A DNA stretch of 64,000 bases, from the NCBI GenBank assembly GCA_008632985.1, contig QPGO01000026.1, positions 496,001 to 560,000 of the forward strand. The letters are read 5' to 3'. Below, piece by piece: positions 11,847 through 33,439 of this stretch; the first letter of the stretch is position 1; every line of letters begins with the position of its first letter. The position numbers were made by a program, and so were the translations under genes. The notes beneath the pieces are model-generated. The model did no database searches. It was not told where the DNA came from and was given only the letters and a program-made list of their open reading frames with translations. Source of the DNA: Psammoneis japonica. Taxonomy: Eukaryota.

Positions 11847-12288
11847 CTTTGACTCTTCCAGAACGAGATATTGTGAGAAAGCAGATCTGTTCGTTGACGC
11901 CTGCTCTCAAAGGAACGTTCTTTTGTGACACAGAGTTCTCTTCTCGACAATATTGGCGGGAAAACTATGATTTTGGAAATTCGAAATGGCGGCTGGCACG
12001 TGCCTCGTCCGGCAAATAAATCGAAAGATATTTCCCTCTTATGTAATGCATGTTATGAGTTATTCGTATCTTAATTTTTAAATGAAATGAATGAATACAT
12101 AAGATACTGAATATCTGCAATTCTTTTCTTAAACGTTGCGGAACGAGCAGTTGTTGTCGCGCTTCACATTTTCGGGAGTTCGCCGAGGCTCACTAAATAA
12201 ATGACAATGGAAAAAAGAGTCGTCACTGAGGGTGTTGTCTCGAGAGTAAATCTATTGTATATTTATATATCTAATTTCTAATGGTCCT

Positions 12289-14860
12289 CTATTCGGTGGC
12301 GTGGTACTTGATGTCCACAACTTCACCAGAGAACGGCAAACCATCAGATCTCCAAAATTGCCAAATCACGCCGGGATCCTGAAAAGACACAATCATAAAC
12401 TTTGAGTCTGGTGAGAAAGCCAAACCTGTTGTCTCTGAATTATATGAGTCATCCCCAAAGCTATCGATAAGAGTGAAATATCTCCCCGTGAAATCTCGCC
12501 CGTGTACACCCGATTTCTTGCCTCCCTCCTCACAAAAGTAAACGAAGGAACCAATGGAAGTAATTTGATCAGGCTTTTTGTCAAAGGCCCCGCTTTCAGT
12601 TGTATGGCGTGTGTATGTCAAATTGTCCAAATCCAAAATGTGGACGCAACGAAGCTTCTTGTTTGTAAAATATAGCAAACCATTGACTACGGCAATTCCT
12701 TCGCTTAGTGGGTAAACGGAAGGATTCGCATCATTCTTCGACTTCACCCATTCAAAGCTTCCACTCAAACCTTTTCTATCCGGGTTCAACTTCAGGTATT
12801 CGTGACTTCCATGATTAAGAGTGCACCACTTGTCCGAATCGTTTGGTGCATTGTAGCAAGCCATACCCTCTTCGTTCGGAGTAAATCGAACGAGAGCCCC
12901 TTTGTTCGAATCCTCCGTTATGTAAAATGTGGGCTTCTCATACCGCGTATCATATGCAAATGATTCATAGTTCCCTCCATACTCAACTACGCCTGTCTGC
13001 TGAGCCTCTATGTTTCCGGATGGATCACATTGGTAAACGAAGCCTTTTTTGCCGTGCTCCTCACACGAAACCCAGGTTCCCCATGGTGATCTAGTTTTTA
13101 AAAGAAGAAAATGGCATTGTAGTCAGCAACATGACAATTTGACTTTGAATGTCAGAAGCAAACATCAACACTATAAACGCACTTTCCCCCTCCGCAGTTC
13201 CGACTAGTTCCATTCAGGACGGTGAAGTAGTCTGTTACATTTCCGTTCTCATCAAACTCAATTGTATGCGCACCACCTTTGTTATCATCTACTTCGGCGT
13301 TTGACGTGTAATAGAAACCCCCGTTGGGGCTTGGAAAGGTAGCCGCGCCATCTGGTTGATCGTGCATTGGAATTAATGACTTTTCTCCATTTACAAAATC
13401 TATTGACTCGTTGCTGTACGCAATTGCTCGTCCTAACATACCGTTCGATACAAGGATTTCTCGTCCATATTTGCTGTAGAAAGTAGCAAAAGAATGTTAA
13501 CGAGAAGTTGCATTACAAGCATGTGCAAACAAAGCAACAAATTCCTTACTCTACCAGCGTCATCCCCAAAGAAAAGTTCCCGGGATGGTAAGAAATCGCT
13601 GAGTCAAAGAGTGTATTTTCCATTGGCGGTGTTGTAGGTGGGAAAAATGTTGGCTCGTTAGTTGGATATTCCGATGAATAATCCGTAGGAGCTATTGTCG
13701 GCGCCTTTGTTGTAGGAGAAAGAGTCAATTTTTCTGTGGTTACAGAGGTTGGTGTCTCACTAGGAAATGACGTTGTCGGATACCTCGTAGGCGATGTACT
13801 TGGCAACTCTGTTGTAGGCGTCAACGTCGGAGATACAGAGGGCAAGGACGAGGGCTTTCCGCTTGGAGATGACGAAGGTTTAGCGGTAGGCAGTCGTGTC
13901 GGGGACTCTGTTGTTGGGTTGGGCGAAGGATGTTTGGTTGGAAAGTCAGTCGTAGGTGCAAGCGTCGGGGCTGACGTGGGTTTAACCGTAGGAGAACGTG
14001 TTGGAGGTGCTGTTGTTGGGATGATCGTAGGATATCTGGTTGGCAAACGTGTCGGTGAATTTGTTGTCGACCCTGGCGATGGAGAATTCGTTGGTGGAAC
14101 ATCGGCATTGCTCTTTACATCAAAAGTAGGAGCGATCGAAGGAGACGAGGACATCGTTCGGCATTTACAGCAGGCATCGTTGGCTGTACTTCCGTTGTTT
14201 GGGTAGAGATGTCCGTACCGAGCGCATCTACCTTTTCTACCGTACCAATCACAGTTGAACAAAGGGCCATCCGAGTCATGCCAACCAACAGGATTGTCCA
14301 CACACGTCTCTTGTAACATTTGACGCTGCCAATCATCAAGAGGCATCAAATTGTGAATAGTTGAAGTACTCGTGATGTCTCCGGATTGGGAGATGACCGA
14401 AACTCGATATCCATATTTCTCGTCTTCCACGGGAGACAAACATGAACTTCCAGAGCTGCTGATTGAGCCACAGATGCAATGAGGAAAAAGACAACATGCT
14501 TTTGACTCATCCTTGGTATCATAGGTAATGCAATCAGAATCATGTCGACAAGACATGAAATCTTCTTTCGCCAACGCCAACCAGGTGCCTGTTGTGTTGA
14601 AGTAGCTTTTGGAGAAAGCGTTAGGACAAGATCGATCGTCAATATGGTAACTGTGCTTCTGTGTCAGTATGGAGAAACAAAGATGTAAGTCGTTAAGATG
14701 CTACCATGCGCTCCTCCTCACCACGCCTCGATCACTGTTTCAAACTGAGGTAACTTACCTGTACATCACGATCCCAATTCTTTCGATTTTCATCCCGCAG
14801 GTGCTTCTCGCCATGAACTGCTGTTATTATAATTGCAAATATTTCAACCACAAGAAACAT
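12289..14860 (-). CDS. phoX: Secreted PhoX-type (DUF839) alkaline phosphatase-like protein with Cys-rich N-terminal modules and a Pro/Thr mucin-like stalk, ~767 aa; exons 14860-14759, 14658-13550, 13473-13183, 13090-12289
   Basis: Three GT-AG introns give one continuous frame of 2304 nt. Signal MFLVVEIFAIIITAVHG. Motifs PDGAATF, YYTSNAE, NCGGGK/SPWGTWVSCEE, EGIAV, PDQI, YFCEEGG, ETTGLAFSPD. About 20 PTxxP repeats. WHDSDG..CDWY..TANDACC module. Confidence 0.88.
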
Positions 14861-15008
14861 GGTGGTCCTCTGTTGGTCTCCAGTTCTGGAGTCACTCCAG
14901 AACCGCTTTACAGTCTATAAATGTCGGAGAAAAGTGGGAAAAGAAAAAAAAAATGAGGCGAGCGTGCGTTCGCTTGAGCATTGGTGCGTGAGAGCGAACA
15001 ACGACAGC

Positions 15009-16990
15009 GTCACGGATGGAAAGCACAAACGGTTTCAATATTATCCAAATTCATATTGATTGTATATATATATAAGATATTCAGAAAAATTTACGAACCG
15101 TTATCCAATAAAATGATCGAACGGTTTTTTAATTATTACTCGTTTCTCTAATAATGCGATAGTAAGTGCAATACGTTACATACAGTAGCAGTTCTTTGGA
15201 AACATCAACGAGGCGAGATGGGCGGTCATGCTTGCGCTTGCGCATTAGGCGCGCGTACTGTACAATACAGTGAAGGAGCACTACTCGCGAGTAGAGTTTA
15301 GTTGAGGTTACAACTTTCATCCTGACCATGGCGTTGATGACTGATGAAGACTTCCAAAGAGTCGCCACAGAGTTTTCTTTTACACCCCAGGCAACGCACC
15401 ACTCGTTCGAGGCAGTTGGCTTTGGATGAACGGCGCCAACCCCCGTTCGTCCGTCCACATCAACGGGTGCCGGGGTGCAGGGAAAACAACCTCATTGAAT
15501 CTGATTGGATTGGCTCTACAGGCTGAAAATTTGACTGTGTACTTTTTTGAGAACTCAACATTGCTGAACCGAGAAAATGTTGTCCATCTCGTCAAGACCC
15601 TGGCCAACAAGAAAAAAGACGTGTGGCTTCTAATCGACGAAACCCAAGACAACGTCGGAGGAGAACTTTTCACTCTCCTCCTGAAGAATGCCAGGAACCA
15701 CAAGATCACCACGGTTGGTGCTGGTGTCCCCAAGTTCAAAACGACGAGTCAAAAGTTCATGCAAAAAGTCAACACGTCTGACCTCTTCTTGTTGTCAAAC
15801 GAAGTGATGGTTTGCAAAGGCACGGTGGATTGTTTTTTGGGTTTTGTGGCAGCAGTCAGCAAATTTGCTGCTGCCACTGCTGCTGCAAATGTTGAAAGTC
15901 TCCACACAGTCTTGGAACACATGCATGCCTGCATTGGTGGGCACATCCATCGCTTGATGTGGCTCTCGGAGGTTCTGGTGAAGAAGCTTGTTGCACACAA
16001 GGCCACAACACCAAGGGACATTAAAGCACTTGCATTCAGATGAGTTGCAAGGCCACTTCCAATGCAAGGCCATGGTTGATTGGTGTCTGTCTTGTCTGTT
16101 GATGTGTGTCCATTGCTGTGCAAAACCAAGAACCCAATGTCGCTTTATGATCTCAAGCGAAAAGGCTTCTGCAACACCAACAATGAGATTTTATCAGAAT
16201 TTCTCTTTAAAGAATTCATCTCAAAGATGTCATCAAGTCACTCTTTCAACAAGCAATTGTCACATGGTGTTGAAGGTGTGCAGCAACTTCTTCAGTTTGC
16301 TCTTCCAAATCCATGTTGGACCATGTGCACAACCCATTTGGCAGGCCCTTTGAAGATGTGCTGACATTGGAACTTTTGACCATTCTTTTGGGAGTTTCCT
16401 GTTTCAAAACTTGATTGTTGAACCCAAAGCTTGTCAATGTTGGCATGGCAGCAAGAAAACCTGACCCACATTTTGACTGGTGATTGGAGGTCTGTGGTGT
16501 TGGCAGGTGTGGATCTGGAGAAACAGGTGGTGGGAGAGTCGCACGGAGTGCGCTCTGGGATGGAGAGAAAAAGGGTTGGCCAAGGGTGCAGACAGATGGT
16601 TGAGAGGAGGAGTTGGTGATTGTAGGATGGCAAAGAAGAAAGCTTGACATGCTGAGAGGTGGCTGGAGAGAGCAAAGTTGAAGTTGAGGCTGAGGATTTG
16701 AGAGGCCCAGAGTTGGGGGGTTGCAGTGTGATGGGAAGAGCCAAAGCGGTCCAGCAAAAGTTGTCTCAATTCTTGTGTTGATGCTTTTGTTGAGTGCATC
16801 CTGATGAGAGCAAACAATGAAAATGTCACGGATGGAAAGCACAAAATGACTGTCAAGGATTGTTGGGTTTCCATGTCATCCAAAAACACATTCATTTTAA
16901 TTGCAAATCAAACGGTTTTTTCATTTGTTGCTGGTCTTTCTAACATTGCAACAGTGCACTTTGTCAGCATTGTTCCTTAGAAACATCCAA
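15009..16990 (+). repeat. Local duplication of an upstream non-coding segment: 15009-~15210 (intact) and 16825-~16990 (TpA/CpG-eroded)
   Basis: Identical 21-mer GTCACGGATGGAAAGCACAAA at 15009 and 16825, followed by alignable sequence. Each copy precedes a P-loop NTPase remnant. Confidence 0.75.
15328..16360 (+). pseudogene. Decayed P-loop NTPase gene
   Basis: Walker A INGCRGAGKTT and Walker B WLLIDETQ. Frameshift after the first ~33 codons and further stops downstream. TpA and CpG content falls along the gene. Confidence 0.65.
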
Positions 16991-17189
16991 TTGCACCACT
17001 GCAGGGCCCTGCATGCTGGCATGCATCCTGCACAACTCTGTCACCATTGTCAACAACCAACAACAGGCAACCAGCCCCATCAGTGGAACTCAGAAAGAAA
17101 ACCAAGAGGATGTGCCGGTCAAGGAATCTTTGGCCTCCCCAAGCCAGGCTTCCAGCTTTTACTTTGGCAGCTGATGCAGCTGGGCTCAC

Positions 17190-17960
17190 AATGGCCATTC
17201 ATGTCAGTTGGGTTGCCCCAGATGAAAATTTGGGACAGGCGCACAGGAAAGTCAAGGAATTGATGCAGCAAAGAGCAATTCTCTGTGGTTCTGACCCCTC
17301 TTTACAAAACACACATTAATTGATCTTTGCTCACAATCTGGCCTGGTTCCTCAGGGTGTGATTTGCACAATGTGCACACCGGTTGGCCATGGAAAGACCT
17401 TGGGTGCCATGTCTGTCCTTGAGAATTTTCCTTTCCCAGGAGAAGGAGAAAAACATGCAAGGGGATTTGTGCTTGCTGTCAAGACATTGACAATGACCAC
17501 ATGTCACAATTGAATGCCTGTCTTGGAGTGATGGCGGTCAAGGGTGGGTCCATGCACTTCCACTTGCCATGAACAAACTGGAAAATCTTGAGCCATCTCT
17601 GCTGATCCTTGATGAATTCAATTTGCTCAGTGAAGACCATGTCAATGACAGCTTTGTTAAGAATTTGTGTGGCTTGATGATTGCAAAGAAAAACATGCTC
17701 TTGTTGCAATCAGCACACAGGACGAGACTGTTGCCAACAGGCTCTGCAGTCTGAATGGTGGGCAAAGAATTGCCCCAGTGCCGGGCACTTTTGCAGGGGA
17801 TGAAACATTGCCAAAGTGGAGCAGGATGAAATGGAGCAGAGAACTCCTCATTGAAGTGGTGCACCAAGAATTCCCAAAAAGTTTCCTGTGAATCATGAGT
17901 TTGAATTTGTTGTTGGTGACATGATGCCACTGCAAGCAACAGCTGCTTTGTTGTCTTTGC
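17190..17960 (+). pseudogene. Second, more decayed P-loop NTPase-like gene
   Basis: Walker B-like SLLILDEFN followed by TQDETVANRLCSLNGGQRIAPVPG, split across frames. Confidence 0.45.
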
Positions 17961-18639
17961 AAGAATGCACTGGCAAATGGGGTGTGGCTAATTCCTCACC
18001 ATGGAGATCCTCACCAAATGCTCACCATGACTTTTTCATCACACGATGTGACACCATTGCATTCTTTGCATGTGAACTGCCACATCAATGGGGCATTTTG
18101 AGCCAAAGACACCCCCCCTCATCAAACCATCCCTGACATGAAAAAAAAGATGCAAACATTGATCACAGTGCAGCAAGCTGAAAGCAGCACAAATCACTTC
18201 ACACCATGTCATCTTTTCTCATCTCTGCCAATCTCTCTGCTCTCTGCCATCATCATGTGCAGTGCGCATCATTTGCATGGAAGCATTGCAGCACCGCAAG
18301 AACAGCAGAGAGGCTGCACAAGAAGCCATGTGTTGCATTGTTTTGTCTCTGCTGATCTCCTCAGCATCATGCACAGTACACTTTGCTTTTGTGGAAATGT
18401 TGTGACACTGCAAGGACAGCAAAGAGGCTGATGCTCAAGAACTCAACAAGCCAGAAAAATGTGCTCCCAAGCAGCACCCACACTGCATTGTGTCATGAGT
18501 TTGTCTTGTGCGTTGCACATGTCCAACTGGGTCAACCAGCATGGTGCCATCAGCTCGCCAGAAGTCAAGCTCAAAAGAAGCAAAGCAAGGAGCTCTCAAC
18601 CAAGAAGTGGGTCATTGCAGATTGACAAGAGGATTGATG

Positions 18640-20660
18640 CGAAAGCATGCCGCTTCCAATGAGGAGACAAGTCATGAGAGAGACAATGAGTGTTGCAAGA
18701 AAGTTTTTGAACACAAGTCTGCACAGCCATTTCCTCAAGGCCGCTTGTTTGCAAGTCATGCACAGCTCGTGCAGGTGGCAAGGGAATTTCTGGAGATGTG
18801 GGGAATGGAGGGAGTGCACAAACAGAAAAGTGTGTGATGCCACTTCTCTGAGACCAAAAAGAAAAAGAAGGTTCAACCACTTGCTGAAAGATCCAATCAC
18901 CAAAACATTGGCCCAACAATGAAGAGCAAGTGCAATGCCCATTCTGCACAATGCACAGCTTCACAGAAAAGAAAAAGAATTTTTTTGCAAAGAAGGTCAG
19001 GCTTGACATTTTCCACAAAGTGAAGATGACATCGGTGGTGTGTCAGCACACCTGCACGCTGAACACGGTGCATCATTGAAAGGCAAAATGAGCTGGCAAT
19101 GGCACTCAACCCAGCTTGCAAGGACTTCAGAGCATTGTGGAAGATCTTCACATGAAGCCAAGCACAAAGGCTGAAAACCTCTGCCTCAAACTGCTCAAGC
19201 ATTTGCCTTTGCACGTGGGTGCTGATGCAAAGCACCTGATCAACTTCCAGCAGCCATGTCAGCAACTGGGTGCTGAATCACAAAGAAGATGAAGAAGTTC
19301 CATGTGACATCAAAGAAACCCATTGCTGCCAATGGGCTGATTGTGATGACAGCTCTTTGACTGGAGCCAATCTTAGAAAGATGCTCAAGAAAACAATGCA
19401 AGAGGATGGATCCACTTGGGGATGCACTGCATTTTCTAGAGGATTCAAAGAAGTTGCCACATGGCTTTGACTTTTGTTGGAAAAAAATGGGGCCGGCCAC
19501 CCCAAAGCCATCTGCTGCATGACAGCAGACATGCACCATGAGTTGATTTGGTGTGGCAACATTCTTTTCCTGGATGGCCAGAAATGACAGCACAACAGTC
19601 AAGGATGGCCGTGCATCAGGCCAACCATGGAGGACTGCACCAAAATGAAAGTTCAGTGTGTGGCTGTGTGCACTTGTGCCAAGGAAGTCCACATGTGCTG
19701 CCAATGGCAGATGGTCTTGTCCAGGAAGAAAATGGAGCCAAGTTGGATGTTGTCAGTGACATCCAAATCATCTTTGCTGGCCAGCACATGACTCAAGGCT
19801 TCATTGATTCACTGGAAGCTGAAAAGGTTGATTGTGAAAATTGCATCCTTCTCTGTGGGACCATTGTCATCTGCTTGAAGAAGTGTTCCCATCAAATGAA
19901 TGCTTTGGAGTGGCACTGCATTCTTTCATCCACAACCAACTCTGCTTCATGCTCCAATCCAAAAGGCAAGAGGAGTGGGTGCTGCACATGATTCTGCAAA
20001 GGGAACTGTGAAGGCAAATGCTGCAAAACTGTCACTGCTTTGAGCAATTCATGGCAACCCAGAGCATTGTGCACCTTGGTGCTGGTGGGAGTTGGTCAAT
20101 TGCCATGCACACAAAGTGCTTGTGCAAATGCCAAGAAATCCTGACCCACAAGCAGAGAAAGAGAGGGAGATGATCTTCATGTCATCATTTCCTCTTGGCA
20201 CAAATCCAAACACAGAGGTCAAGTTGGCAATGATGTCCAGCTGGCCAAGAGAACCTTTTCTTGGCATGGATGGAAGAATCTCTGCACCTGTGCCACAAAC
20301 AAAAACAAGTGCCTTCAAGTCAGTGCAACAGAAAACAATTCAAAGCACGTTTGGCCTTGTGGCAAGGACATCGCCTGTGACAAATGTGTGGTTGTGCCAT
20401 CAGGAGAGCAGTGCCCCCACTCCATTTGTGAATTCCCTGTGGCACTCAGTGTCAGCATGAACTGTGCACCAACAGAAAACCAGTGCTGTCAAAATGGCAT
20501 CTTTGGTGGTTGTTGGAGCAAGTGCGCTTGGTGGAAATGTCATGTCTCATGTGCACACTTTAACAGAAACCAAGAATGATGACAGGGATGGATCACAGGA
20601 CAGCTCTCCCTTTCATGATGGCCAAGTCCCACTCAAGATGCTGCACAAACTTTGAATGTT
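18640..20660 (+). mobile_element. Decayed MULE/Mutator-like transposase
   Basis: Remnants RLFASHAQLVQVAREFLEMWG, LKKTMQEDGSTW, and DIQIIFAGQHMTQGFIDSL resemble diatom MULE/SWIM transposases. Many frameshifts; TpA and CpG are nearly absent. Confidence 0.55.
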
Positions 20661-21344
20661 GAATGCCAAGGCACCTCCAAAGACAACAATGACAAGGGTG
20701 GCAACAACAAAAGTGACAAGGGCAAATGAGTTGATGTGCTCCATTCATGTTTGGATGAAGAAGACAAAGCTCTGCTCCTTGCTTGCCAGGAATTGACCTC
20801 TCAACCATCAAATGTCACAAGGCCACTTCAAGGTGACCAACCCAACATGGCAGCACTTTCCTCATTGCTGCGAACAATTGCCGACTGAGCAAGACATGGG
20901 TTGAGCACAAATGAGAGCTTTGACTCCTCCTCTGCACAATCACAAGAGAACTTCTTGACAACCCAGAAGCAAGCCCATTGGAGTGCACATTGCTGGGTCA
21001 GTTTGCTGAGCCAGATGACTCTTCATCACACAATTGTTTGCCACCACCACTTTTGCCACACTCATTTCCTGGAGTGTGTCCAACCACATCATTTGTAAGA
21101 TGTCTTCTGGATTGGCAGACAGACTTGTTCCTTTGTCACAACAAATGAGCCAACCTTCAATCTTGTGCACTGAACTCTCTCAGCATTCAGTGTGAGTGCC
21201 TTTTGGCATGTTTGGCATTCCATGGATGCAAGAGTCACTGGCAGATGATGTGACACCCCATGAAGTTTTGAGCAGCAGTGTTTTGCAGCACAGCTGCATT
21301 CATTGATCCTGTGAAGTGCAGGCGTCATTTAGAAAAAATGTCAT

Positions 21345-22250
21345 GAGACAGCGCAACAGTGCTTTTGACATTTTGGAAACATGACAGCCACAGAAACATT
21401 GTTGCCTGTTGACTCATCACAGCATTAAAAGCACAGGGTTTTGCAGTCACCAAAACAGTGCTGACTGTGTTGGGATTTGTTGTGGCACCTGTGGGAGGTG
21501 ATGGATCAAGCCAAAAACAGCACAACACAGTGCAACAGTGCTTTTGGCATTTTGAAAACACAACAGTCATGGAAATGTCACACCTGTTGTTTCATGCATG
21601 GCAGGAAAAGCACAGGGTTTGACAGTTGCCAAAATGATGCTGGCTGCATTGGGGCTCATTGTGGCAGTTGTGGGAGGTGCTGGAGTGTGAGCCAAAAACA
21701 GTGCAAGACAGTGCAACAGCACTTTTGCCATTTTGGGAACACAACAGCCATGGAAAGATTGGTGTCGCATGTTGTTTCATAAAGAGTGGGAAAAGTGTGG
21801 GGTTTGACAGTCACCAAAATGGTGTTGACTGCATTGGGATTTGTCATGGCACCCAAGGGAGGGCGGGGCTGGAGCAAGCAAAAAATGGCACAAGATGGTG
21901 TGACAGCATTTTTGACATTTTAGGAACACAAAAGCTGCAAAAACATTGTCACCTGTTGTCATGTGCATGGTGGGAAAAGCACAGGATTTGACAGTTGCCA
22001 AAATGGTGCTGATTGCATTGGGGTTCATCATGGTGCCTGTGGGAGGTGCTGGAGTGAGCCAAAAATGGCGTGAGACAATGTGGCTGCACTTTTGACATTT
22101 TGGGAAAACATGACAGCCATGGAAACATTGTTGCCTGTTGACTCACACTTGGCAGGAAAAGTGCGGGGTTTGACAGTTGCCAAAACAGTGATGATTGCAT
22201 TGGTGCTCATGATGGTGACTGTGGGAGGCACTGCAGCATGTCAAAAGCAG
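21345..22250. repeat. Degenerate tandem repeat, about 5 units of ~180-185 bp
   Basis: Anchor GTGGGAGG(TG) at 21491, 21670, ~21855 (variant), 22039 and 22221. Recurring ...AAAAGCACAGGGTTTGACAGTTGCCAAAA and CTTTTGRCATTTTGG motifs. Confidence 0.85.
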
Positions 22251-23159
22251 TGTGAGTTTGCAGCAAAATGATTTTGTCAGTGGCAAGGCGATGAGAAGCA
22301 AAGCACCATCATCAACTCTTGCACCAGGAGCATCAAGAATGGTGCAGGAGGGCATGGAAGTCACAGAAAGGCAGCCACAGCACTTTCATTCATGACAGGA
22401 GCTGCGGCAGGCACTGGAGCATGAGAGACAGAGTTTCAGCAACCAAGCTCTGATTTTGGCAGCAACTGGCACACAGTGGTCACAGAAACAACATTGCCTG
22501 TTGCACCAGAGGCACTGGCACTGACTGCATCAAGTGATGCCTTGTCAGGGGAAGGTTGTGGAGATGAATTGCTGGAAACCGTCATGTTTGACTTGAGTTG
22601 ACTTGTGTTGAGTGTTGACATGTGCTTTTTTTGCAGTGCCAGCAATGCCAGTGGGGAGAGGTTGGCACAACTCACAATCCTGATGGCCGACAGATGTGGT
22701 GGGCATTTGGCGAGGATTGCCACAGCAAGAAATTAGTGCAGCGCTTCTTGGCTGGAGACGTCCCCCAGTCCTGACCACTCTAGACTGGTTGTCCCATGCT
22801 TGTGTGCTGCATTTTCAGCCAATCATGTCATGTCTTCAGTGAATTGTGACTCAGCAATCCCCAATTGTGATGATGCAACATTTGAGAATAATTTTGTCTT
22901 CAAGCCATTTATGACTCAGCAACATTTAAGACCACTTGCTAAATGGACAGACAGAAAAGACGCTGCATGCAGCAGGAAAAATCCTCACGCACACTTGCCA
23001 CTCTCGAACCGCTGCAGCACAATGGCGACTGGCTCCATTCATGAATCGACCATCACTGTGACAACACAAGGGTTGACAGCATTGATGCAAGGTGCAAAGA
23101 CTATTTTTTTGTTGGTGTCTCCTAAATTTCTTTTGTTTCCATTGTGCTCAAATGGAGCG

Positions 23160-24050
23160 TGTGTTTTTGGTTTTGTTTTCTGCTGCCAACAAGATTGCTG
23201 CTAACAATGAACCATGAGGACCATGAGGGCGCACCAAAATCATTGAGACAAGGCAATGTGAACATGTCGAGTGTGATGGGGTTGTTTCTTTGTTGGCATC
23301 TTCTGCATTTCTGTTGTTTCTGTTCCTTTTAATTGGACAGTGTTTTGTTTTGTTTTCAGCTGATGGCATTGCTTGACACACTCAACCACAAGTGCCACGA
23401 GGGCACACCAAAAGCATTGATGCAAGGCAACAGGAATGTGCCAAGTGCAATGAGTCTGTTTCTTTGTTGTTGTGTTCTCAATTTTGATGTTTCCATTCCT
23501 TTGTTTCTGCTGCAGGGCTGCAACAGGCCACCAGCTTCGTGGGACCTTGGTGTCTGTGCTGTCCAGGCCACTGATGTTGGCACGGTGTGGCAACAGTTGG
23601 TGTGGTGGACCGGTGCAATTGTGCAAGTGCAAACTGTTTGTTGCCACCATGTTGGATCCCAATCCTGAATTGATGCTTCCACGCTGGGAAGTGGTGATGT
23701 GATGTGCACCAACACAAACAGAAAAAAGAACAAAACAAAAAGACACCAAGAACACCTTTGTCATTTGATGACTCCTCAAAGTTGTTGTGTTCTTTTCTGT
23801 TTTTTACCTGTGCAGATGGTTGGTGTTTTTTCTCTGCTGCCGACAAGATCATTCATGAATCAACTGGTGCCAGGGTGATGCGACGGGCAACAGAATTCAC
23901 AAAGGCAATGCAAGTGTCTCAAGTTTGATGGTGGTGCATTTGTTGTTTGACAAATCCTGACATTTGTTGCGTTCTTTTCCATTTTCTGCTGCAGTGCAGA
24001 TGGTTGGTGTTCTTTGTTTTGTTCTCTGCCGACAACAAGATCAAGGCAAA
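23160..24050. repeat. Degenerate non-coding direct repeats
   Basis: GAGGGCRCACCAAAA..ATTGA..CAAGGCAA at ~23225 and ~23399 (~175-bp spacing). TCTGCTGCCRACAAGAT-like motif at ~23179, ~23833 and ~24026. Confidence 0.55.
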
Positions 24051-25743
24051 CAACCAGCTGTGGAAAGATGCAGATTGGCAGTTGGTTGGTGCCAGCAGCA
24101 CTTTGCTCTTCTTTCAACATCAGAGGGGCAAAAAAGGTGGCACAAATCACAGGTCATTGTTTCACACACTGAACCTGTGCGCTCACATCTTCATTTGTTG
24201 GGTCGACACCTCAATCATTCAATTTCCTGTCCGCTGATTGAGATCTCAACTTTTTTATTTATTTGCACTTGTCCACATTAATCCTGCCGCCGATTGTTGC
24301 CCCACATCCCAAAATTGTTCCTTTTCATGTGCCCACTTTAATCCAACAATTAGCCAGCCTGACCGGCACACGTTTGTGGATCTCCTGGAAAATCCATTGT
24401 GTGTTCTCTTGCTTTTTTCACATGCAGCGACATTTGCATTCTCCAATTACATTGTGTGCATTTGATGTGTTCATGTTGTTTGTTTCCACAACATGTTGCG
24501 GCAGCATGAGCACGGGGCCGCGATCATCAATGCACACTCTGTGTTGAGTCAACCGAATCATGTCAAAAATGCTTTGTCCATCCTGCGATCCTTCCACGGC
24601 CTTTCCACCATGCAAACTTTTGACCACTGCGTTTTTGGCAAAGTTGACAGGGGGGAATCACTGCAGGCTCTGCGCAACCTCCATTGCCTCTTTCCGCATT
24701 GACCACGGGGCCGATTCTGCTGCCTTTGCCATCCCCTCCTGCCCAAGACAAGTTGTTTGACTCCATGGACCCCACTGATGAATGTTTGGAAGATGGTGAT
24801 GTCGGCTCTGAAGTTTCCGCTTTGTGCAACAAACCAACTGTGAATCATGCTGTTTGCACGCCGTTGTTGTCTGCCAAGGAAGTGTGCTCTCGCCTCGGAC
24901 ACTCCCTTGGGCGCTCACTTGCGAAGTGGATTTTCCGTCCAATGCAAGCAGCAGCAGCTCTGTTGCTGATTCTGGCTCCACGGAATTGATGCTGGAAGCA
25001 GTCCCTTTTGCTGACAATGACATTGCCGAAGATTTGTTTGATGACAGTGGTGACGACTGCGATGATGTAGATGACGCCGCAGGTGATGCCGCAACTGACA
25101 CTGTTTGTCCCAGAAAAACAGAAGACGGTTCTTTGAAGAAATGCAGTGCGCCATGTCTGACTGCTGTTGGAACTTTTTGTCGTTGCATGTTGAGTTGCTA
25201 AATTCCCTTTTTCTTGTTTGTAAGTTGTTGAGACGGATGATGATGCAATTGTTTTTACAAGTGGCGCCGGACATTGTTGCATCACCAAAACTTGATTCAA
25301 GAGGACAATGGAAACTCAATGGGCAAGGAAGGCCTTTCTTTCTGATCTTGTTTGGAAGCCCACCCCTGACTTTCTGGCACTTCCTCATTTGTGGCACAAT
25401 CCCAAGAATGGTCTCTGCCACTTTTTCAAGCAAGTTGTCACTCAACGACATCATCGGCAAATCTCTCGGTTGCATGTGTGGTTTCCATTGCATTCAAAGC
25501 CGTGGTTGGACTTGCAAGCTGGAAAAGAAGAAGGCAAAGGCTACCAGGCGCTGCATTCTGCAGCACCAGAAAGTGACAGAGGCCTTCAATGACCTGGAGT
25601 GCTGCGGCAAGAACCTTGTGGCCATGATTGACTTCATGCACCATTTTGTCCAGTCCAAAAGTCTCTTCAACCACACATTGTTCCTGCAGAAGAGCAGCTT
25701 CATTGCCAAGGCCAACTTCGTGGCACAGATTCAGAGCATCGCC

Positions 25744-26132
25744 GACGCGTTCCAGGTCTAGGTGGGACCTCGTACTGCTGAACTGTGACATCGATAGTTT
25801 TTTGAATCTCGTCGTATGTCGCGCACGTAGAATTCTACGTGATTTTTTGATATTTTGTGTCATTTTACGGTACACTTATTGAGCGATCCGTCCAAAAACT
25901 TTTGACATTTTTTGTTACAGCGCGATTCTATGCTGTCTTAAGAATCGCGTAGGGCAGGTGCATTTGCAAAAACGTCGAGTGGTAAGAGGCATAATTGTAC
26001 CACAAACTTGGCCGTTTATTTGATGTTGAAGATAAATGTATCCATTAATTAAATTCTCGTACTACGGAGCTCGCACGTAGAATTCTACGGGCCCAATGTC
26101 ACACGGAGTCCCACCTAGGGCTGGAACGCGTC
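25744..26132. mobile_element. MITE copy 1 (389 bp), TIR GACGCGTTCCAG..CTAGGTGGGAC, 4-bp TSD CGCC
   Basis: Left end GACGCGTTCCAGGTCTAGGTGGGAC, right end GTCCCACCTAGGGCTGGAACGCGTC. CGCC at 25740-25743 and 26133-26136. Near-identical copy at 53689. Non-coding. Confidence 0.93.
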
Positions 26133-26699
26133 CGCCGCATCCATCATGGAGACTCTTTTCCTGCCACATGTTGATGCCAAAAGGGGCACCACCTGCTTTT
26201 GGCCCAGATTGGTTTTTTCTCAGTGCTCAAAACCAAAGAAGTTTTCGCTCCCAGCAAACAATCTCCTGCAATCAGTTGACACCAAAGCCAAGCTTGGGTC
26301 AGGCAACGCAGTGAAAAACCTGCTGAAGACAGGCCCAGGTTCTGTCAGGGACCCAGTCAAAGACAAGGTTTGTGGTCAAAAAAGAGAAGGTCTTTGTTGT
26401 GAGTTGGTTGAAGAGCAAATGTGAAGCACATTTTCAAAGAACTGCAACAATCTCAACCGGCACAAAATGAAGAATTTGGTGGTCGTGCACTTGCGTGTTT
26501 GCAATTTGATGTGTGGGCACCTCAAGCCAAAGCAGAAAGAAGACTTCACCTCTTCTGCTTGGATTGGTTTGACTTGGAAGGGACCTGACCAAAAGGGCTC
26601 TGCGACCGACAAAGGTTGGTGTGTTTTCTAGCAGGGCCGTCGCCCCGCATCTTTTTCACATTTTCAAACTGATTTCTGCTGCTGATTTTTCTGTTGGAA

Positions 26700-28518
26700 T
26701 GCAAGGATCCCTTTCTCCGTTAAAAAGAAAGGCGGTCATGGACCTGGCTTCCAGCCGTCACTCTGTTGATCCCACCACCTGCCCCAATGCCAAGTTCCCC
26801 CCACTTGGCAAACTTGTGCATGATGTTGATGAAGACGAAGATGATGCCCTGTCCGCAGCTGACGAAGAGTCTCACCCCACACCTGTTGCTCTCTGTCCTG
26901 CAACCCCTTTTTCTCCCGTGTCTCTGGACGATTGCTTTCCACCCAACTGCCAATGCCTGGTCCCCAGCCTGCAAGAAATTGCCAAGCTCACTCCTTGTGT
27001 TCATGCATTTTACGATGGGGTTGACGATGATGGCGATGTCAATGAGGATTTGAACGACCGCGAGTTAATCCTGTTTCACTCCCCGTTTGATTTCCACCTG
27101 CTCTCTGACCTCCGTATGTTGACACATTCGTTTGAGTCAGCTGGGCCTCTCCCTGATGTCATGTGGCGTGGGCGCGAGTTAAACACGGTCCCTCCCCAAG
27201 CAACAAAGATTTCCCCAGGTCAAACAATGCTCCGTTCAGATGACAAGCTGTTTTTAAAAACATTTTTCCGGTCTCAAACTTCATTTTGGTGCATTGGCGC
27301 GTTTTGTTCTGGAGCGTGGCACCATCAACAAGAAACATGATGAGGGTTTTCCTGGGGGACCTCTGCACAAATGTTGAGTTGACTTTGGCTGTTGCACACA
27401 GAACTGGGTTGTTGGACCCAACCGTGCACCACAGCCATCTCCTTTGTGTGGCTTTGACACATGTTCAATTCTGATTTGGGTGAAGATGCAGAATTTCTTC
27501 TCCAAGTGAAGGCCATGTCAGCCGATGCTTTTGATTGCATGCAGCGTTGCCAGGATGAATTGTGCGTTGAATGTTTTGATCTCCCATCATCGCACAACAA
27601 CAAGGAGAGGACTCAAATGTTTGGCCAACAAGCACAAGATGCACTTTGGGCTGAACATGCCATGAACGAACTCTTTGTGCTCCAGCTAAAAAACATGAGC
27701 CATGGCGGCAGGACAGGTGATCACATGGACAAACAGGACTGCCATTGGTTCATGCACAGAGACACTGGGTGTCTCTGCTTGTTGGGTGACGACAAGGTGG
27801 GAGACACTTGGTCATTGAAAGCTTTGTTGAACAGCCGGGACAAGGCAGGAAATTGCTACATTCACAAATGCGGCATGAGAGACCTCAAGGCAAGGGTTGG
27901 CATTTTCACTCGTGCCATCAACCACAATTACAGCCAATTCATCAGGGAATGCTGCGGCGGTCCCATGCGTCTCCGGAAGGGCAATCTTTCCCATCGTCAC
28001 CCCAAAAATTCTTCTTGGATGACGGCTGCCCTTGGGAATCAGTTGCATTGCGATCAGAGGGCAACACAATGCAGGGCACCATGGCATTCCCCACTTTTGT
28101 CATGCGGAATCTCTGGTTGTCTTTGGCTGAGACCCCCACATGTGACATTCATGACGACCTGGGCATTCGCGGTTGTGTTCAGTTGGCAATCATGGCAAGT
28201 TGCCAGACGGGTTTCAACCATTTTTTTTATGTCTGCACAAAATGCTCAGACCAGCTGCACAAGTCTCCAGAAACCACTGCCCTTGTGTGTTTCCGTCATG
28301 CCATTGCTGTTTTTGGATCAACTGCCAGTGACATGGGAGCTGCCCCTTGTTGCATGAACCCCAGCGGCTGCAATTTCATTGCTGTGTGCTGCAATGATGT
28401 CGACAATGACCGAACAGACAACGATGCAACCGCTTCACCAACAAAGCCTCCCCCCATGTTCCTCCCAGGAAAAGGCGACGTTTGCAAACACCAGACAAGG
28501 ATGATTGCCAATGGGTGA
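26700..28518 (+). pseudogene. Hypermutated gene relic of unknown family, probably transposon cargo; contains an HxD segment weakly reminiscent of 2OG-Fe(II) dioxygenases
   Basis: Protein-like runs across ORFs 26621-27340, 27461-28357 and 27808-28518, with acidic tracts and LQLKNMSHGGRTGDHMDKQDC..TGCLCL..WSLKALLNSR. Confidence 0.35.
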
Positions 28519-29289
28519 CATCTGGTGAAGAACTGGAAAAATTGGAAATGAACTCTGCGATGGACCACATGACAACAGATGTGATTTCCCTGCTGGAGTG
28601 GATTGATGCCAGCACAGGCACTCAGAACTTCCATCACTTTACAATTTGAGAAAAAGATTTGCGAAATGTGCGCAGGTTGGTGGGGAAATCGACGATTTCG
28701 CCAACCTGCCTCGCACGCCAAGCGCGAGCTTGTCTGCTGCTGCAGCCAGAAACCTGGTCATCCAACCAAGGTTTCTGGAGGTCGGCTCTGAGTGTGTTTC
28801 CTGACATGGCTTAAGATTGAGAGTCACTGCTCCCACTGCAGTCGCGTCCAATGCCACACCGCCATGGACTTCCACAGCATGTCCGCCACACATCTGTCGG
28901 CCATCAGTGCTCTGGAATCCTTCCTTCACCCCCTTGCGCACGCGAGACAGAAAAATGGAAAGACACTGTAATGAGGAAAAAATGTGTGATAAACTTTGCT
29001 TGTCATTTAACAAAACACATGCAATGTCATCTTCATGGAATGATGTGTCATTTCAGTTGCACCTGCACACGAAATAAAAAGATGTTTCACGCCTTGTCGA
29101 GAACCGCTGCTGCAATGCTGCCACGATGCGACCCCTTCTCTTCTACAGCATGGCAGGACCCTGGGCTCGACGCCTTCAATTGTTGGCACAGCACACTTTG
29201 GATGGCACTCTGCCGGCAGTTTCGGCACAGTCTAGAGCAGTGTGCACAAAACCAGTTTTTGAGAAAATGATGCCACCAGAGAATGATGG

Positions 29290-30286
29290 TCACAAATCAT
29301 CACAATCTACATCAAAAAGTGGCTCACCATTTTGAATGGAAAGCTGTGTCACTGCTGCAACTGCCCCAAAAACATCAGCATGCTTGGAGAGGGGACGGTG
29401 TCTGAACTTCGTGCTCAGCACCCCCCAATTCTTGAGCCGTTCATTGCAGGTCTCCTGTCTGGCACGAGCACGCCTCTGCATTTCTTCATTTTCTTTTCAG
29501 TTGACAAAAGAACTGGGGCACTTTACATGCATGGGTGCCTCACCCAAGTGCCCATCATCAGCTTCCACGCGTTCACCCTCATCAAGTTCCGTCTTCAATG
29601 CCGATCGAAAAATTTGTAAGTCGTTGTACACACCGGGCTCAAAGGGCCCATTGATCCACACAATTTCACCAGTTTCAATGCATGTTGCAACTTCGTAGCG
29701 AAGTCCACACTCGTTGAACTTCTGCAAGTGGAACTTCTGGCCGTGATTCGGAGTGCGAAAGTCTGTCCCGTTGACTGTTGCCAAACAATCATTCCCGGTG
29801 TCGTCAATGCGGCGATTCTCCCAAACAATCTGGACAGAGCAAACAGCAAAAAAATCAATGCAGGTGAGAATCGATTTCAATTGCATGGAAATGTTGCTTC
29901 ACTCGGGCACTTGCCACGTGCGGCTCGAGTGACGACATCGCCTCCACAATCGCCCACTTCCACTCTCGAAAAGTTTTTTCGTCCACCCCCCCAGCCAAGG
30001 AGGCAAGTTCAGTTTCCTTGCCATCAGTTTTCACAAAAAGAAGTGCCCACATCATGTGGACAATGTTGCCGCCTTGCGGCAGGACGTCGTGCAGGACGAG
30101 TGGGTTCCACAGCATGAGAGCCACGATTGGGCTGCAACCAAAAAATTCACGAAAACGCCTGTCCTCGGTCATTGTGGCGCCAAACTTCTTCTCGCGTCCA
30201 TTCATCATTGAGCGTCCCAAATTGATGATGTCCTCAACTCCGACGGCAAGCCAGCGCATCCTCTTTCTTGGCGGCAGAGAAGCCAT
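29290..30286 (-). mobile_element. PIF/Harbinger-type DDE transposase (DDE_Tnp_4-like), inactivated; intron 29914-29830
   Basis: DRRFREFFG, HMMWALLFVK, VDEKTFREW, CLATVNGTDF (DGTD), GLRYEVATCIETGEIVWINGPF..G..NDLQIFR, EADDGH (ADDGY), RARQETCNERLKNWGVL..FRH. In-frame TGA, and a splice donor reading GCAAGT. Confidence 0.85.
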
Positions 30287-30554
30287 GGTGGAAAGTGGCG
30301 AGCCGGAACAAAATGAAACCAGCATTGAGTGATGGAAACAAGGTTGGGCCGTGGATTGTCTGCTGCTGTTGAAGTGCACGCATCGGCATGGCACACGCAA
30401 TCTGACAGTCACGATTTGTTCGTGTTTTGACCGTCATTCTCTGTTCTTGGGGAAAGTGCACATTTTTATGTGAGGAGAGCTCGCGCGTTTTTCAACCAAA
30501 GATTTCAGAAGGTGTGACACAGCTTTTGTTAACAAAAAGTCTTTGTCACAGTCA

Positions 30555-30752
30555 TTTTTCTGCACATCCGGGTTTTTCTTTCTATCCTGCAGGATTCTCA
30601 GTGCAGTTTCTACACAAATTTTTGCAACCCGGATGTGCAGAAAAAAACTGTGGCCAAAGCTGCACATCCGGGTGCTTGTGTGTCGTAGCTGCTGGTGGTG
30701 CTCCTGCGCAGTTTCCGGGTTTCACCCAAATCCAAAGCTGCACATCCGGGTG
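30555..30752. repeat. Four TGCACATCCGGGT motifs between the divergent Harbinger genes: one perfect 20-bp inverted pair and one 21-bp direct pair
   Basis: TTTTTCTGCACATCCGGGTT (30555-30574) pairs with AACCCGGATGTGCAGAAAAA (30626-30645). CCAAAGCTGCACATCCGGGTG occurs at 30654 and 30732. Confidence 0.85.
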
Positions 30753-30975
30753 TTTTGTCAAAAATCTGTGACGCAATCACAATGCCCCTGTCATTGTGTG
30801 ACCGAAAACATGTGAAAAAAATGTCGTTTTCACGAGCTCTTTGTAGAGACATGCCAGGAAAACCCAGGTCGCGCCATTTTTCCGTTGGGTTTCGTGTCTC
30901 GCCCGTTTGGCGACCGTCTTGCAGAAAAACCAGTGCTGTGCTCCAAACCATCATAATCACAACAGCAACCAGTCC

Positions 30976-32408
30976 ATGACGAACGCCATGAGCAACGAAG
31001 GGACGAAGGCCCGTTGGACGAAAGATCACGACACAAAGCTTGCAAAACTTTTCAAAGAACGCAAGCTTGATCCGAATCTTCTTGACTTGCAAAGCATCAA
31101 GAAAGCATGCGAGAAGCACTTCAGCGACATTCCGAAGCATCAGACTTTTGTGCAACAACACCGCAAGAAGTGTCGGCAGTGGGAAACCGACGAACTCATT
31201 CGAGCCAGGCGGAAAGGTGAGAAGCACATTTGTTTCCACTGTTCTGTTGTTTTGTTCGTCTCATGCTCACACCATCGTCTTTCTGCTTTGACTTGCACTT
31301 GCACAACTCAGGTGCCAAGCGAAGCGCCGAGAACGTCGTGGAAGACGTGCAAGACGAGGAGTCGAGCGAGGACGAGGAGTGCGAAACCTCAGAAGACGAA
31401 GAGGAATGCTCTAGCAACAAGGAGGCAGCCACCAGCATGCCGGGCAAGACCAAGAGGACCCCCAAGACAACGCGAGACGTGAACCGCGACCTTGCGTCAA
31501 AGTTCAAGTCGTCTGCTGCCATTTCATCGTCTGGCAAGACCAAGTTGAGGAACAAGAAGAAGGCGGACTCGCTTGTGAAGAAGGGTGAGATCACTTGTGA
31601 GTGTGGACACTTTTTCTTAGCATCTCCGTGGGCAGCATCCGACAAGCGCATGCACACTGCCGTGGATGTCCTTGTGCCGCCCTTCGCCACGTCACACTGG
31701 AACCCGAAGGTTTCTGATTGTGGCACGAGGGTCACACTCAATGAGCGCATCCCTCATTGGATGTTTAAGAAGGATCGCGTGCATGCTTCTATTCTCACTT
31801 CTAGGCCATCTTCGGAAGACCAAGTTCTGAAGGAAAGCGGAGTCGAGCAAGCCGGGCAAGAGCTGCTCAAGAGCTGCGGCGTTGAAGAGACCTCAGGCAA
31901 CGGCAAATGCCGCATGGTTTGCTGCCGCCCCCATGTCATTCACCTCCCATTCCCCTGCGAGACCAATTTTTATTCCACAAGCAGCAAGGTCAGTTGGAAG
32001 CTTGAGGCATTCGCACACGACAACGAAGAGCTCATGGAGCAAGCGCAAGGGTGCATGCTCCTTTCGATGGAGCTCGTGGTGGTGGAGAAGCCTTTAGATG
32101 AGGGTGAGGCAGTTGAGAAAATCAAATTTCTTGGTCAGTCTCCTCTAGATGCCGCAATTGCCAAGCAGGAAGCGAGGAAGCGTCGCCAAACTAGATTCGA
32201 ACACTCGGCGGCGGCGGCAGAGGGAGTCAACTCGTGTGACGACATGGTTTCGGATTCTGAGGAATGCGGCAATCTCAAAGATGACGATGAGCATTTGCAA
32301 AGTCGCAGCAGTTGTTCTGTTTTGGCAAAACAGCACATTTTGTACTCTCTGGTCTTGCTCCAGTCTCATGTTGGTGTTTGCAAATCAGCTGGATGCGTGT
32401 GCTTCTAG
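30976..32408 (+). pseudogene. Probable Harbinger accessory protein gene (N-terminal helical Myb-like segment, acidic tract), hypermutated; intron 31217-31311
   Basis: ARWTKDHDTKLAKLFKERKLDP N-terminus, in-frame GTGAG...CTCAG intron, EESSEDEECETSEDEEE tract. Divergent from the transposase; almost no Tyr. Confidence 0.55.
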
Positions 32409-33439
32409 CGTGTCATAGAAAAAAGAGAACATTTCCTAATTGTCAACCAATTAAAGCAACATGTTCGGTGCTGAACGTTTTAAAATGCATGACTGAACAT
32501 GCAAACAAACAATGCTTTCGAAACCAACCTCGTTCGTCCAATCAGGCTGTGCATGCCGGTGCAGTGCGATTTCAGACCAAACACGTTCATTCTGGCATGT
32601 TTCTGCATGAATTCTGTCCGTTTTTCGACACAATCCGCGATTTCCCACAGAGCTTCTGAAACCAACATGAACGAGTTCCGTGTGATGCTGATTTTGCAAA
32701 TGCCAATTGGATGCGGCGTCACAGTTGCTGGTCACAAGGATCTCCGCAATCTTGTTCATCCCATGGTTAACCTGGGGGCAGCAAAGCAACTGGCTCACCT
32801 TGCGAATGATGAAAGGGCAGAGGCACTGGAAATTCTCGTACAAAATTGTGATGTTGAACATCATGGGGACAACTGCAAGGAGTGTGCAACCTGCAAAAGC
32901 CATGAAAACAGAGTTGAAGAATTGATCAAGGAACATTTTGTCAAGAATCAACATCTCTTCTCCCTCATGGGTGTGGATGGTGTTCCCAGCATGAAGAGAT
33001 GTGGAACGTGCTGCTGGGAGAAAATGCCAGTGATGCGCGCCAAAGTTGCTGAAGACTCCGCCAATTCCATCCAACAATGCAAGCAATTGAAGGTTGCCAA
33101 TGTGGAGGTTGGTGCTGCGGTTGACCTTGACATGACGGGCTTTGTTCCCAAAACCAGGGAACCAGCCAAGTGGACGACACCTGCCCAGTGGCCAAACAGA
33201 CCAAGAATCATGACGATGGCATGATGACGCTGTCGCGGAATTGCCAAAGGAAGAAACAGCAAGCAGCATGAGTGTCAAGGTTGACACCCCTCCAGACGAT
33301 GCAACCAATTTGGGGGGATGCCACATGGTTGGGGTCACCCTGTCTGAGCCTGTGTCCCCTGTGACAGTCAAGGTTCTTTCTTGTGCATGACACAGACAGA
33401 AGACATCAATGTTGTGACACACGCCAACATTTTGCACGG

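What the first reader, a model, noticed from the sequence alone, without database searches (positions are those of the whole stretch)
15009..16990. Internal before/after pair that shows the direction of mutation
Seen: a non-coding segment is present outside the domain (15009-15210) and inside it (16825-16990). Outside ATATTATCC corresponds to inside ATGTCATCC; TTATTACT to TTGTTGCT; CTAATA to CTAACA; GCGATAGT to GCAACAGT; ATCGAACGG to ATCAAACGG. Every TA/CG-related transition listed has the TA or CG on the outside copy. Inference: the copy next to the active phoX promoter was protected, while its sister 1.8 kb away was mutated. Because the DNA is non-coding, codon selection cannot explain this.
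Basis: seen in the sequence. Interest (0 to 1): 0.72.

Follow-up and report, generated by a model that had tools for sequence, protein, structure and literature searches.

The report
One-way TA erasure in diatom duplicate
Two old copies of a short gene-upstream segment in a diatom straddle the edge of a silenced DNA island, and the copy inside has had its TA and CG steps rewritten to TG or CA, a one-way targeted mutation of a kind so far reported in print only from one unrelated alga.

Summary
The pair is real: 14989-15207 and 16805-16988 align beyond the 21-mer (0 of 1000 shuffles; 117 of 146 confident columns identical). I found no third copy, so direction was tested otherwise. A second allele (run X1) has CA where the window has TG and the outside copy CG, but it also shows two contrary sites. 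The flanking broken NTPase genes turned 10 of 15 and 7 of 8 outgroup tyrosines into Cys/His, none back. Young MITE copies gain TA>TG/CA 16:4. Direction is supported. Protection by phoX is not shown: the segment lies about 120 nt upstream of an NTPase gene in both copies, island edges also abut 3' ends, and no RNA run was listed. TA loss starts at 15310, CG loss 500 nt further in: two nested processes. Best reading: island-targeted A-to-G editing at TA (TAT>TAC>TAG>TAA) plus methyl-CpG decay, like Bigelowiella TpA hypermutation (2026 preprint). The scan has already reported this process, and better direction controls, on other DNA of this genome.

The parts
14989..15207 (+). Outside copy of the shared upstream segment (TA o/e 0.96, CG o/e 2.09), in the ~510-nt gap between divergent phoX and gene A; carries an unaligned (TA)n tract at 15063-15074
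16805..16988 (+). Inside copy (TA o/e 0.16, CG o/e 0.32); its 3 surviving TA are in slow contexts (TTAA, CTAA, TTAG); it starts where gene A homology ends and ends 122 nt before the start of gene B
15009..15029 (+). Identical 21-mer, copy 1 (only 2 matches at <=2 mismatches in the 91-Mb genome)
16825..16845 (+). Identical 21-mer, copy 2
15325..16818 (+). Gene A: broken AAA_14/STAND-type NTPase gene (frameshifts, stops, one insertion, 3' tail missing); 72-78% identical to intact protein P0013; 10 of 15 Tyr codons now Cys/His
15310..15823 (.). Halo zone: TA already erased (o/e 0.12) while CG is near normal (o/e 0.82); TA edge 15310 (15310-15408), CG edge 15824 (15776-15870)
16480..16767 (+). ~288-bp dispersed repeat inserted into gene A (40 scored matches of 75 candidates; other copies 74-90% identical); candidate nucleation site, inferred
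17110..17947 (+). Gene B: broken P-loop NTPase-like gene of another family (E 1.9e-39 to P0035); 7 of 8 aligned Tyr now Cys/His
15310..41660 (.). TA- and CG-depleted island (TA o/e mostly <0.2); no Pfam hit in 51 of 51 stop-free frames of >=125 aa in 17000-41700
12289..14814 (-). phoX alkaline phosphatase gene, several exons, TA o/e 0.61; likely ATG 14814 with an intron after it (read from sequence); expression not tested
25744..26132 (+). Young 389-bp MITE-like element (terminal inverted repeats, 4-bp target duplication, 1512 candidates) that still has its TA steps inside the island; used to polarise recent mutations

Best explanation
The two segments are an old duplicate of an upstream element of tandem NTPase genes (shown: homology, position about 120 nt before each start; inferred: regulatory role, and a deletion that fused gene A codon ~415 to the second copy). 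The DNA from the start of gene A onward became a repeat-bearing silent island. Two one-way processes then acted there and not on the outside copy (shown: direction and nesting). Process 1 changes the A of TA to G on either strand, giving TG or CA, fastest at TAT, then TAC, TAG, TAA; it acts first and reaches furthest. Process 2 is ordinary decay of methylated CG to TG/CA, slower and confined to the island core. The chemistry is inferred: process 1 is most likely adenine deamination (A to inosine) in DNA by a TadA/ADAT-type enzyme recruited to silenced chromatin (about 50%), and process 2 is 5-methylcytosine deamination. The outside copy is untouched because it lies outside the island, as all gene-flanking DNA in the window does; no special role of phoX is needed.
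For: Pair: 13 forward against 1 reverse, p=0.0018; transitions at 7 of 20 A/T in TA against 2 of 73 other A/T, Fisher p=2e-4. Second allele X1: CG outside / TG window / CA X1 at 15008-9 / 16824-5, where CG is the only 2-step ancestor; at least 8 substitutions in the 184-nt inside copy against 0 in the 219-nt outside copy, p=0.0017. Outgroup proteins: 10 of 15 Tyr to Cys/His in gene A and 0 of 13 Cys/His to Tyr; Tyr is the commonest family residue in 6 of those 10 columns; gene B 7 of 8. Young MITE, 31 copies: 16 distinct TA>TG/CA minor alleles at 60 positions against 3 other A/T>G/C at 118 (p=2e-6), 4 reverse at 44 (p=0.04) and 4 CG>TG/CA at 56 (p=0.006). Nesting: 500-nt bins TA-low/CG-normal 18 against TA-normal/CG-low 1 of 128 in the window, and 71 against 5 of 264 in repeat flanks. 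Context fit TAT 2.7, TAC 1.7, TAG 0.8, TAA 0.15; 5 of the 7 converted sites in the pair are TAT. TadA-derived editors favour 5'-YAY (PMC10188366, passage). The genome has 5 TadA-family matches and 27 cytosine-methylase matches.
Against: TA alone in the pair is 7:1 (p=0.07) and 4:1 at posterior >=0.9. X1 gives two contrary sites (16979: window TA, X1 and outside TG; 16955: X1 CG, window and outside TG), and its two TA-loss sites (16898, 16922) are weakly aligned; only 40 of 606 difference rows were shown. No third copy of the segment was found, so the pair has no true outgroup. TA hits per MITE copy do not track flank TA depletion (22 against 9 copies, p=0.75). TadA-family genes are near-universal (12 of 14 control genomes), so their presence does not point to an enzyme. 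Methylation, chromatin and expression were not measured.
Confidence: 0.7

Rival explanations
1. Same direction and same islands, but the chemistry is not an adenine deaminase: a modified base (for example oxidised thymine at TpA, or methyl-adenine that deaminates) or a repair deficit in silent chromatin produces T>C / A>G at TA.
For: The sequence signature cannot tell which base of the pair is hit; TAT, the fastest context, is also an ApT step; the B. natans preprint offers its deaminase only as a hypothesis.
Against: TAC and TAG, which are not ApT, are also strongly depleted, and ApT overall falls only from 0.066 to 0.056. The 3' preference matches TadA-type enzymes.
Confidence: 0.25
2. The outside copy was spared specifically because it is the promoter of an active phoX gene, which blocks spreading of the island.
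For: The outside copy starts about 175 nt upstream of the likely phoX ATG; the TA edge lies about 100 nt beyond the copy; phoX looks intact, with no substitution against X1 in 12000-13956.
Against: The segment is duplicated in front of a second NTPase gene, at the same ~120-nt spacing, far from phoX. The TA edge falls at the start of gene A. Three of 8 edges abut 3' ends of genes (10041, 41660, 55031), one only 150 nt from a stop codon.
Confidence: 0.25
3. TA loss is a by-product of error-prone (polymerase-eta-like) repair patches started at T:G mismatches from methyl-CpG deamination.
For: TA and CG loss co-occur in 44 of 128 window bins; polymerase eta mutates A in WA motifs (recalled).
Against: AA is not depleted (0.083 in islands, 0.081 outside); TA loss occurs where CG is intact (15310-15823; L007, L008); young MITE copies show 16 TA against 4 CG changes.
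Confidence: 0.08
4. The direction is reversed: the outside copy gained TA and CG in an AT-rich promoter, and the inside copy is nearer the ancestor.
For: The outside copy has a (TA)n tract and CG o/e 2.09; no third copy exists to settle it; 16979 and 16955 show that gains happen.
Against: It needs 13 gains toward two different steps while other A/T sites changed at 2 of 73; the CG/TG/CA triad, the Tyr losses in both flanking genes and the MITE minor alleles all point the other way; outside TA o/e (0.96) is like its neighbour 15208-15327 (1.19).
Confidence: 0.05
5. RIP-like, pairing-triggered mutation of duplicated sequence.
For: The affected DNA is repeat-rich.
Against: Only one copy is hit; the product is the opposite of RIP's CpA>TpA (recalled); a 7.5-kb 91%-identical tandem duplicate in the window has normal TA (0.46, 0.48) and symmetric differences (TA 29:37, CG 51:41).
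Confidence: 0.03

Closest known systems
TpA-restricted hypermutation of integrated viral DNA in the chlorarachniophyte Bigelowiella natans (Mettrop et al., bioRxiv 10.64898/2026.01.13.699255)
   Same: TpA>TpG/CpA on either strand, confined to bounded regions, leaving TpA-poor, CpA+TpG-rich clusters and raised strain-to-strain divergence; a deaminase is proposed but not shown.
   Different: Here a diatom (stramenopile); the targets are host-type pseudogenes, non-coding DNA and non-autonomous repeats, not recognisable viruses; TA is almost exhausted (o/e <0.1); CpG decay is nested inside; there is a 3' context rule. The preprint's main text has no occurrence of diatom, CpG or trinucleotide. No rate was measured here.
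Methyl-CpG decay in diatom transposon chromatin (DNMT5a; Hoguin et al. 2023, PMC9998398)
   Same: CG>TG/CA in repeat-rich silent DNA; cytosine methylase genes are present.
   Different: Explains only the CG arm; cannot remove TA; methylation was not measured here and the DNMT5 class was not assigned.
Repeat-induced point mutation (RIP) of ascomycetes (recalled; named in the preprint's discussion)
   Same: Dinucleotide-specific, region-confined transition mutagenesis of repeats with sharp edges.
   Different: Opposite chemistry (it creates TpA), hits both copies, and needs sizeable homology; a large duplicate here is untouched.
TadA-derived adenine base editors (PMC10188366)
   Same: A>G on DNA with preference for 5'-YAY and against AAA.
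   Different: Engineered enzymes; here the 5' base is strictly T and the enzyme is unidentified.

Membership tests
B. natans-type TpA hypermutation | A/T>G/C transitions restricted to TpA, giving TpG and CpA | tested here: met
   7 of 20 against 2 of 73 in the pair; 16 at 60 against 3 at 118 in MITE copies
B. natans-type TpA hypermutation | Confined to bounded regions with TpA depletion and CpA+TpG excess | tested here: met
   four islands with sharp edges; TG+CA o/e 1.7-2.0 in the core
B. natans-type TpA hypermutation | Raised divergence between strains in the region | tested here: met
   X1: at least 8 in 184 nt against 0 in 219 nt; 4 of 36 residual TA differ against 0.31 expected; truncated list, one sample
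B. natans-type TpA hypermutation | Targets are of viral or foreign origin | tested here: inconclusive
   Genes A and B have diatom relatives, no viral-contig relative of gene A, no Pfam hit in 51 island frames; repeats are present
B. natans-type TpA hypermutation | About 1000-fold higher de novo rate, active in a subset of lines | not testable with these tools
   needs mutation-accumulation lines
B. natans-type TpA hypermutation | ADAT2-like deaminase as cause | tested here: inconclusive
   5 TadA-family matches, but 12 of 14 control genomes also match; the cause is unproven in B. natans too
RIP | C>T at CpA creating TpA | tested here: not met
   TA is lost, not gained
RIP | Both copies of a duplication are mutated | tested here: not met
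   one copy hit; 7.5-kb duplicate untouched
Methyl-CpG decay | CG>TG/CA excess | tested here: met
   6:0 in the pair (p=0.03; per-site p=0.055), CG/TG/CA triad
Methyl-CpG decay | 5mC present at island CG | not testable with these tools
   needs bisulfite or nanopore data

The most novel reading that the evidence does not exclude
Diatoms run an enzyme-driven, chromatin- or RNA-guided A-to-G DNA editing system that is still active, precedes and outruns CpG methylation decay, spreads from repeats across the whole body of a captured host gene and stops at its start codon: a natural adenine base editor used as genome defence, shared across distant SAR lineages.
Probability: 0.35. Interest if true: 0.9.

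Novelty: new variant of a known kind. Interest (0 to 1): 0.62.

Why it matters
If true, the TpA hypermutation seen once in a rhizarian alga also shapes a diatom genome, where it rewrites host pseudogenes and non-coding DNA, erases TAA/TAG stops and turns Tyr into Cys/His, which would mislead gene prediction, repeat dating and selection tests. The 500-nt offset between the TA and CG edges and the TAT>TAC>TAG>TAA order give two testable handles on the enzyme and on its independence from DNA methylation, in a group where knock-outs are possible. This particular pair is a modest piece of that evidence; the flanking genes and the young MITE carry more weight.

Tried and rejected
Third copy of the segment: none by DNA search with either copy (insensitive, as neither search found the other copy), by the 21-mer at <=2 mismatches (2 hits), by a second-block pattern (2 hits), or by a two-copy profile over the window and 63 fetched loci. 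The two metagenome 21-mer hits share only 21-24 nt with the region and are taken as chance. The idea that the segment is the coding 3' end of gene A was tested and rejected beyond its first ~14 nt (family profile 14.0 bits, reached by 4-12 of 60 shuffles; P0013 tail 24 against shuffle mean 24), although an in-frame 10-residue resemblance at 16900-16929 remains. No Rfam match of note (2 at E>0.5). The sigma-70 scan is not relevant to a eukaryote. No RNA holder listed. Runs X2 and X3 do not cover the pair. Gene A has no relative in viral contigs; the word-index search with gene B found nothing, the full HMMER search found 15. One search had one MITE copy on the wrong strand; counts are from the corrected (site numbers, unaffected). 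Literature searches for a diatom report of TpA loss found none: (open-access library only).

Full report
Setting. The window is G000:C27:496001-560000 of a 91-Mb, 597-contig eukaryotic assembly. Relatives of the gene next to the finding are named from Nitzschia, a Bacillariaceae bin and another diatom transcriptome, so this is a diatom or very close. TA and CG observed/expected values collapse together with a rise of TG+CA in four islands, the largest from about 15.3 to 41.7 kb.

Observation. The homology holds without the 21-mer: local score 56 against 20.8 +/- 3.2, 0 of 1000 shuffles. A symmetric pair-HMM aligns 14989-15207 with 16805-16988; at posterior >=0.5 there are 146 columns, 117 identical, 18 transitions and 11 transversions. 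Thirteen transitions are TA or CG outside and TG or CA inside (7 TA: 3 TG, 4 CA; 6 CG: 3 TG, 3 CA); one is the reverse (outside TG 15197-8, inside TA 16978-9); four lie outside the motifs. The binomial p is 0.0018 for 13:1, 0.07 for TA alone, 0.03 for CG alone, and 0.039 for 8:1 at posterior >=0.9. Per site, 7 of 20 A/T in TA changed by transition against 2 of 73 other A/T (p=2e-4); for CG 6 of 19 against 3 of 34 (p=0.055). The asymmetry partly restates the compositional difference that defines the island; what the pair adds is the route (TA goes to TG and CA, not elsewhere). The middle block depends on a 19-nt gap that MAFFT and a global aligner do not open.

What the segment is. The outside copy lies in the ~510-nt gap between phoX (Pfam PhoX; likely ATG 14814 on the minus strand) and gene A, a broken AAA_14/STAND-type NTPase gene that is 72-78% identical to the intact 495-aa protein P0013 from another assembly. 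Gene A has frameshifts, stops and a ~288-bp dispersed repeat at 16480-16767 (40 scored matches of 75 candidates). Its homology resumes at 16765 and ends near 16818, so the first ~14 nt of the inside copy overlap it; no close match to its tail was found in the genome (best 58%). The rest of the segment does not match the tail of P0013 or the family profile better than shuffles, so it is non-coding. Gene B, a broken P-loop gene of another family (E 1.9e-39 to P0035), starts at about 17110. Both copies therefore end about 120 nt before an NTPase start on the same strand (15207 to 15328; 16988 to 17110). I infer an old shared upstream element, and a deletion that joined gene A to the second copy. 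The NTPase-plus-nuclease layout recalls Crinkler-like families (recalled, not tested).

Direction. No third copy was found, so I used four other polarisers. (1) Run X1, one DNA sample holding 0.75 of the sampled words, carries a different allele or strain; 40 of 606 difference rows were shown. It has at least 8 substitutions in the inside copy and none in the outside copy (its contig over 14267-15226 has one other letter, at 14822); p=0.0017. At 15008-9 / 16824-5 the outside copy has CG, the window TG and X1 CA: CG is the only two-step ancestor. Two sites fit TA loss but are weakly aligned (16898, 16922), and two go against the reading (16979: window TA, X1 and outside TG; 16955: X1 CG, window and outside TG). 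Across 15310-23700, 4 of 36 residual TA differ as TG/CA in X1 against 0.31 expected from the listed rows. (2) Against P0013, 10 of 15 aligned Tyr in gene A are Cys or His, 2 Tyr, 2 Phe and 1 Asp; none of 13 Cys/His is Tyr. Tyr is the commonest residue among 22 other homologues in 6 of the 10 columns (23 of 27 homologues were kept for that alignment). (3) In gene B, 7 of 8 Tyr of P0035 are Cys/His and no Tyr remains in the aligned parts. (4) In 31 copies of a young MITE-like element (the 30 best of 40 scored from 1512 candidates, plus the window's second copy), distinct minor alleles are TA>TG/CA 16 at 60 positions, other A/T>G/C 3 at 118, reverse TG/CA>TA 4 at 44, CG>TG/CA 4 at 56; singletons alone give 8 against 3 (p=0.008). 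These copies were chosen by likeness to the window copy, and hits per copy did not track flank TA content (p=0.75). As a control, a 7.5-kb 91%-identical tandem duplicate outside the islands has normal TA and symmetric differences.

Two processes. The TA edge is at 15310 (15310-15408) and the CG edge at 15824 (15776-15870). In between, TA o/e is 0.12 (4 seen, about 15 expected for a normal gene, p=0.001) and CG o/e 0.82; all three X1 differences listed there are CG against TG/CA, as if CG decay were just arriving. This is the only one of 8 edges whose two intervals do not overlap, but nesting is general: TA-low/CG-normal bins number 18 against 1 for the converse among 128 window bins, and 71 against 5 among 264 flank bins; paralogous loci L007 and L008 are TA-poor with CG largely kept. 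Surviving TA follow a 3' rule, with fitted relative loss TAT 2.7, TAC 1.7, TAG 0.8, TAA 0.15, and AA is not depleted. Five of the seven converted sites in the pair are TAT on the edited strand, and the three TA left inside are in slow contexts.

The phoX claim. phoX looks intact, but its expression could not be tested. The TA edge falls at the start of gene A, about 500 nt from phoX. Of the 8 TA edges, four face 5' ends (Cpn10 gene, RecD2, phoX, ankyrin-helicase), three face 3' ends (10041, 41660, 55031; the first two ORFs have no Pfam hit) and one is unassigned. So being outside an island is enough to explain the state of the outside copy. Being broken is not enough to be hit: paralog L006 has stops yet TA o/e 0.52.

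Mechanism. Shown: one-way TA>TG/CA and CG>TG/CA, regional, nested, with TA faster in young inserts. Inferred: silent chromatin nucleated on repeats; 5mC deamination for CG (DNMT5a methylates transposons in Phaeodactylum, PMC9998398, abstract and outline seen; 27 methylase matches here); adenine deamination for TA, because TadA-derived editors favour 5'-YAY (PMC10188366, two passages seen). Five TadA-family matches exist but are not diagnostic. Polymerase-eta-type repair is disfavoured by intact AA and by TA loss without CG loss; RIP fails two defining tests.

Comparison and novelty. The closest case is Mettrop et al. (bioRxiv 10.64898/2026.01.13.699255; parts 1-3 of 5 read, covering abstract, results, discussion and conclusion, plus a term search; supplements not seen): TpA-only A/T>G/C mutation at about 6e-7 per site per generation in two integrated viral regions of Bigelowiella natans, with an ADAT2 homologue as candidate. 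It does not mention diatoms, CpG or trinucleotide context. Six searches of the open library found no diatom report. This scan has noted the process many times in this genome, including two duplicate-based direction tests and several context-rule notes; these are AI notes and not support. One of them gave me the preprint; I computed the context rule and nested edges before seeing the others.

Verdict. New variant of a known kind; interest 0.62.

Noticed in passing
window 15310-15823: TA erasure begins within about 20 nt of gene A's start codon, 500 nt before CG loss; the three allele differences listed there are all at CG.
   Followed up: yes
window 25744-26132 and 53689-54078: Young 389-bp MITE-like family with terminal inverted repeats and 4-bp target duplication, 1512 candidates; nearly all of the 31 copies examined sit beside TA-poor DNA.
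   Followed up: partly
window 16480-16767: Older ~288-bp G-rich dispersed repeat inserted into gene A; the 15 copies examined have 0-5 TA each, and all have TA-poor DNA on at least one side.
   Followed up: partly
window 43222-50668 and 55164-62629: 7.5-kb tandem duplicate of a ~2450-aa ankyrin plus UvrD-helicase gene, 91% identical; the second copy is split into two frames near 58400, yet both keep normal TA and CG.
   Followed up: partly
L007:1366-2808 (G000:C137): Paralog of gene A with an unbroken 481-codon frame but TA o/e 0.16 and family Tyr replaced by Cys/His, CG o/e 0.68: a gene hit by the TA arm mainly.
   Followed up: partly
window 9263-9826 (-), island 8269-10041: Decayed frame that reads like a non-LTR reverse transcriptase relic (recalled motifs; only a weak RdRP_4 hit, E 0.0075).
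   Followed up: no
window 5257-7500 (-): Intact RecD2-like helicase gene (HHH_RecD2, SH3_13, UvrD_C_2), a bacterial-type family, between two islands.
   Followed up: no
window 16829-30 and 16913-14: The only two CG kept in the inside copy are both ACGG; in the islands CCGG, GCGC and CCGC survive best and TCGA worst.
   Followed up: no
window 16900-16980: The inside copy reads in frame with gene A to a TAG at 16978, with a 10-residue resemblance to the family's last motif at the expected distance from the stop; not significant against shuffles. If real, the 'reverse' TA would be an ancestral stop codon.
   Followed up: partly
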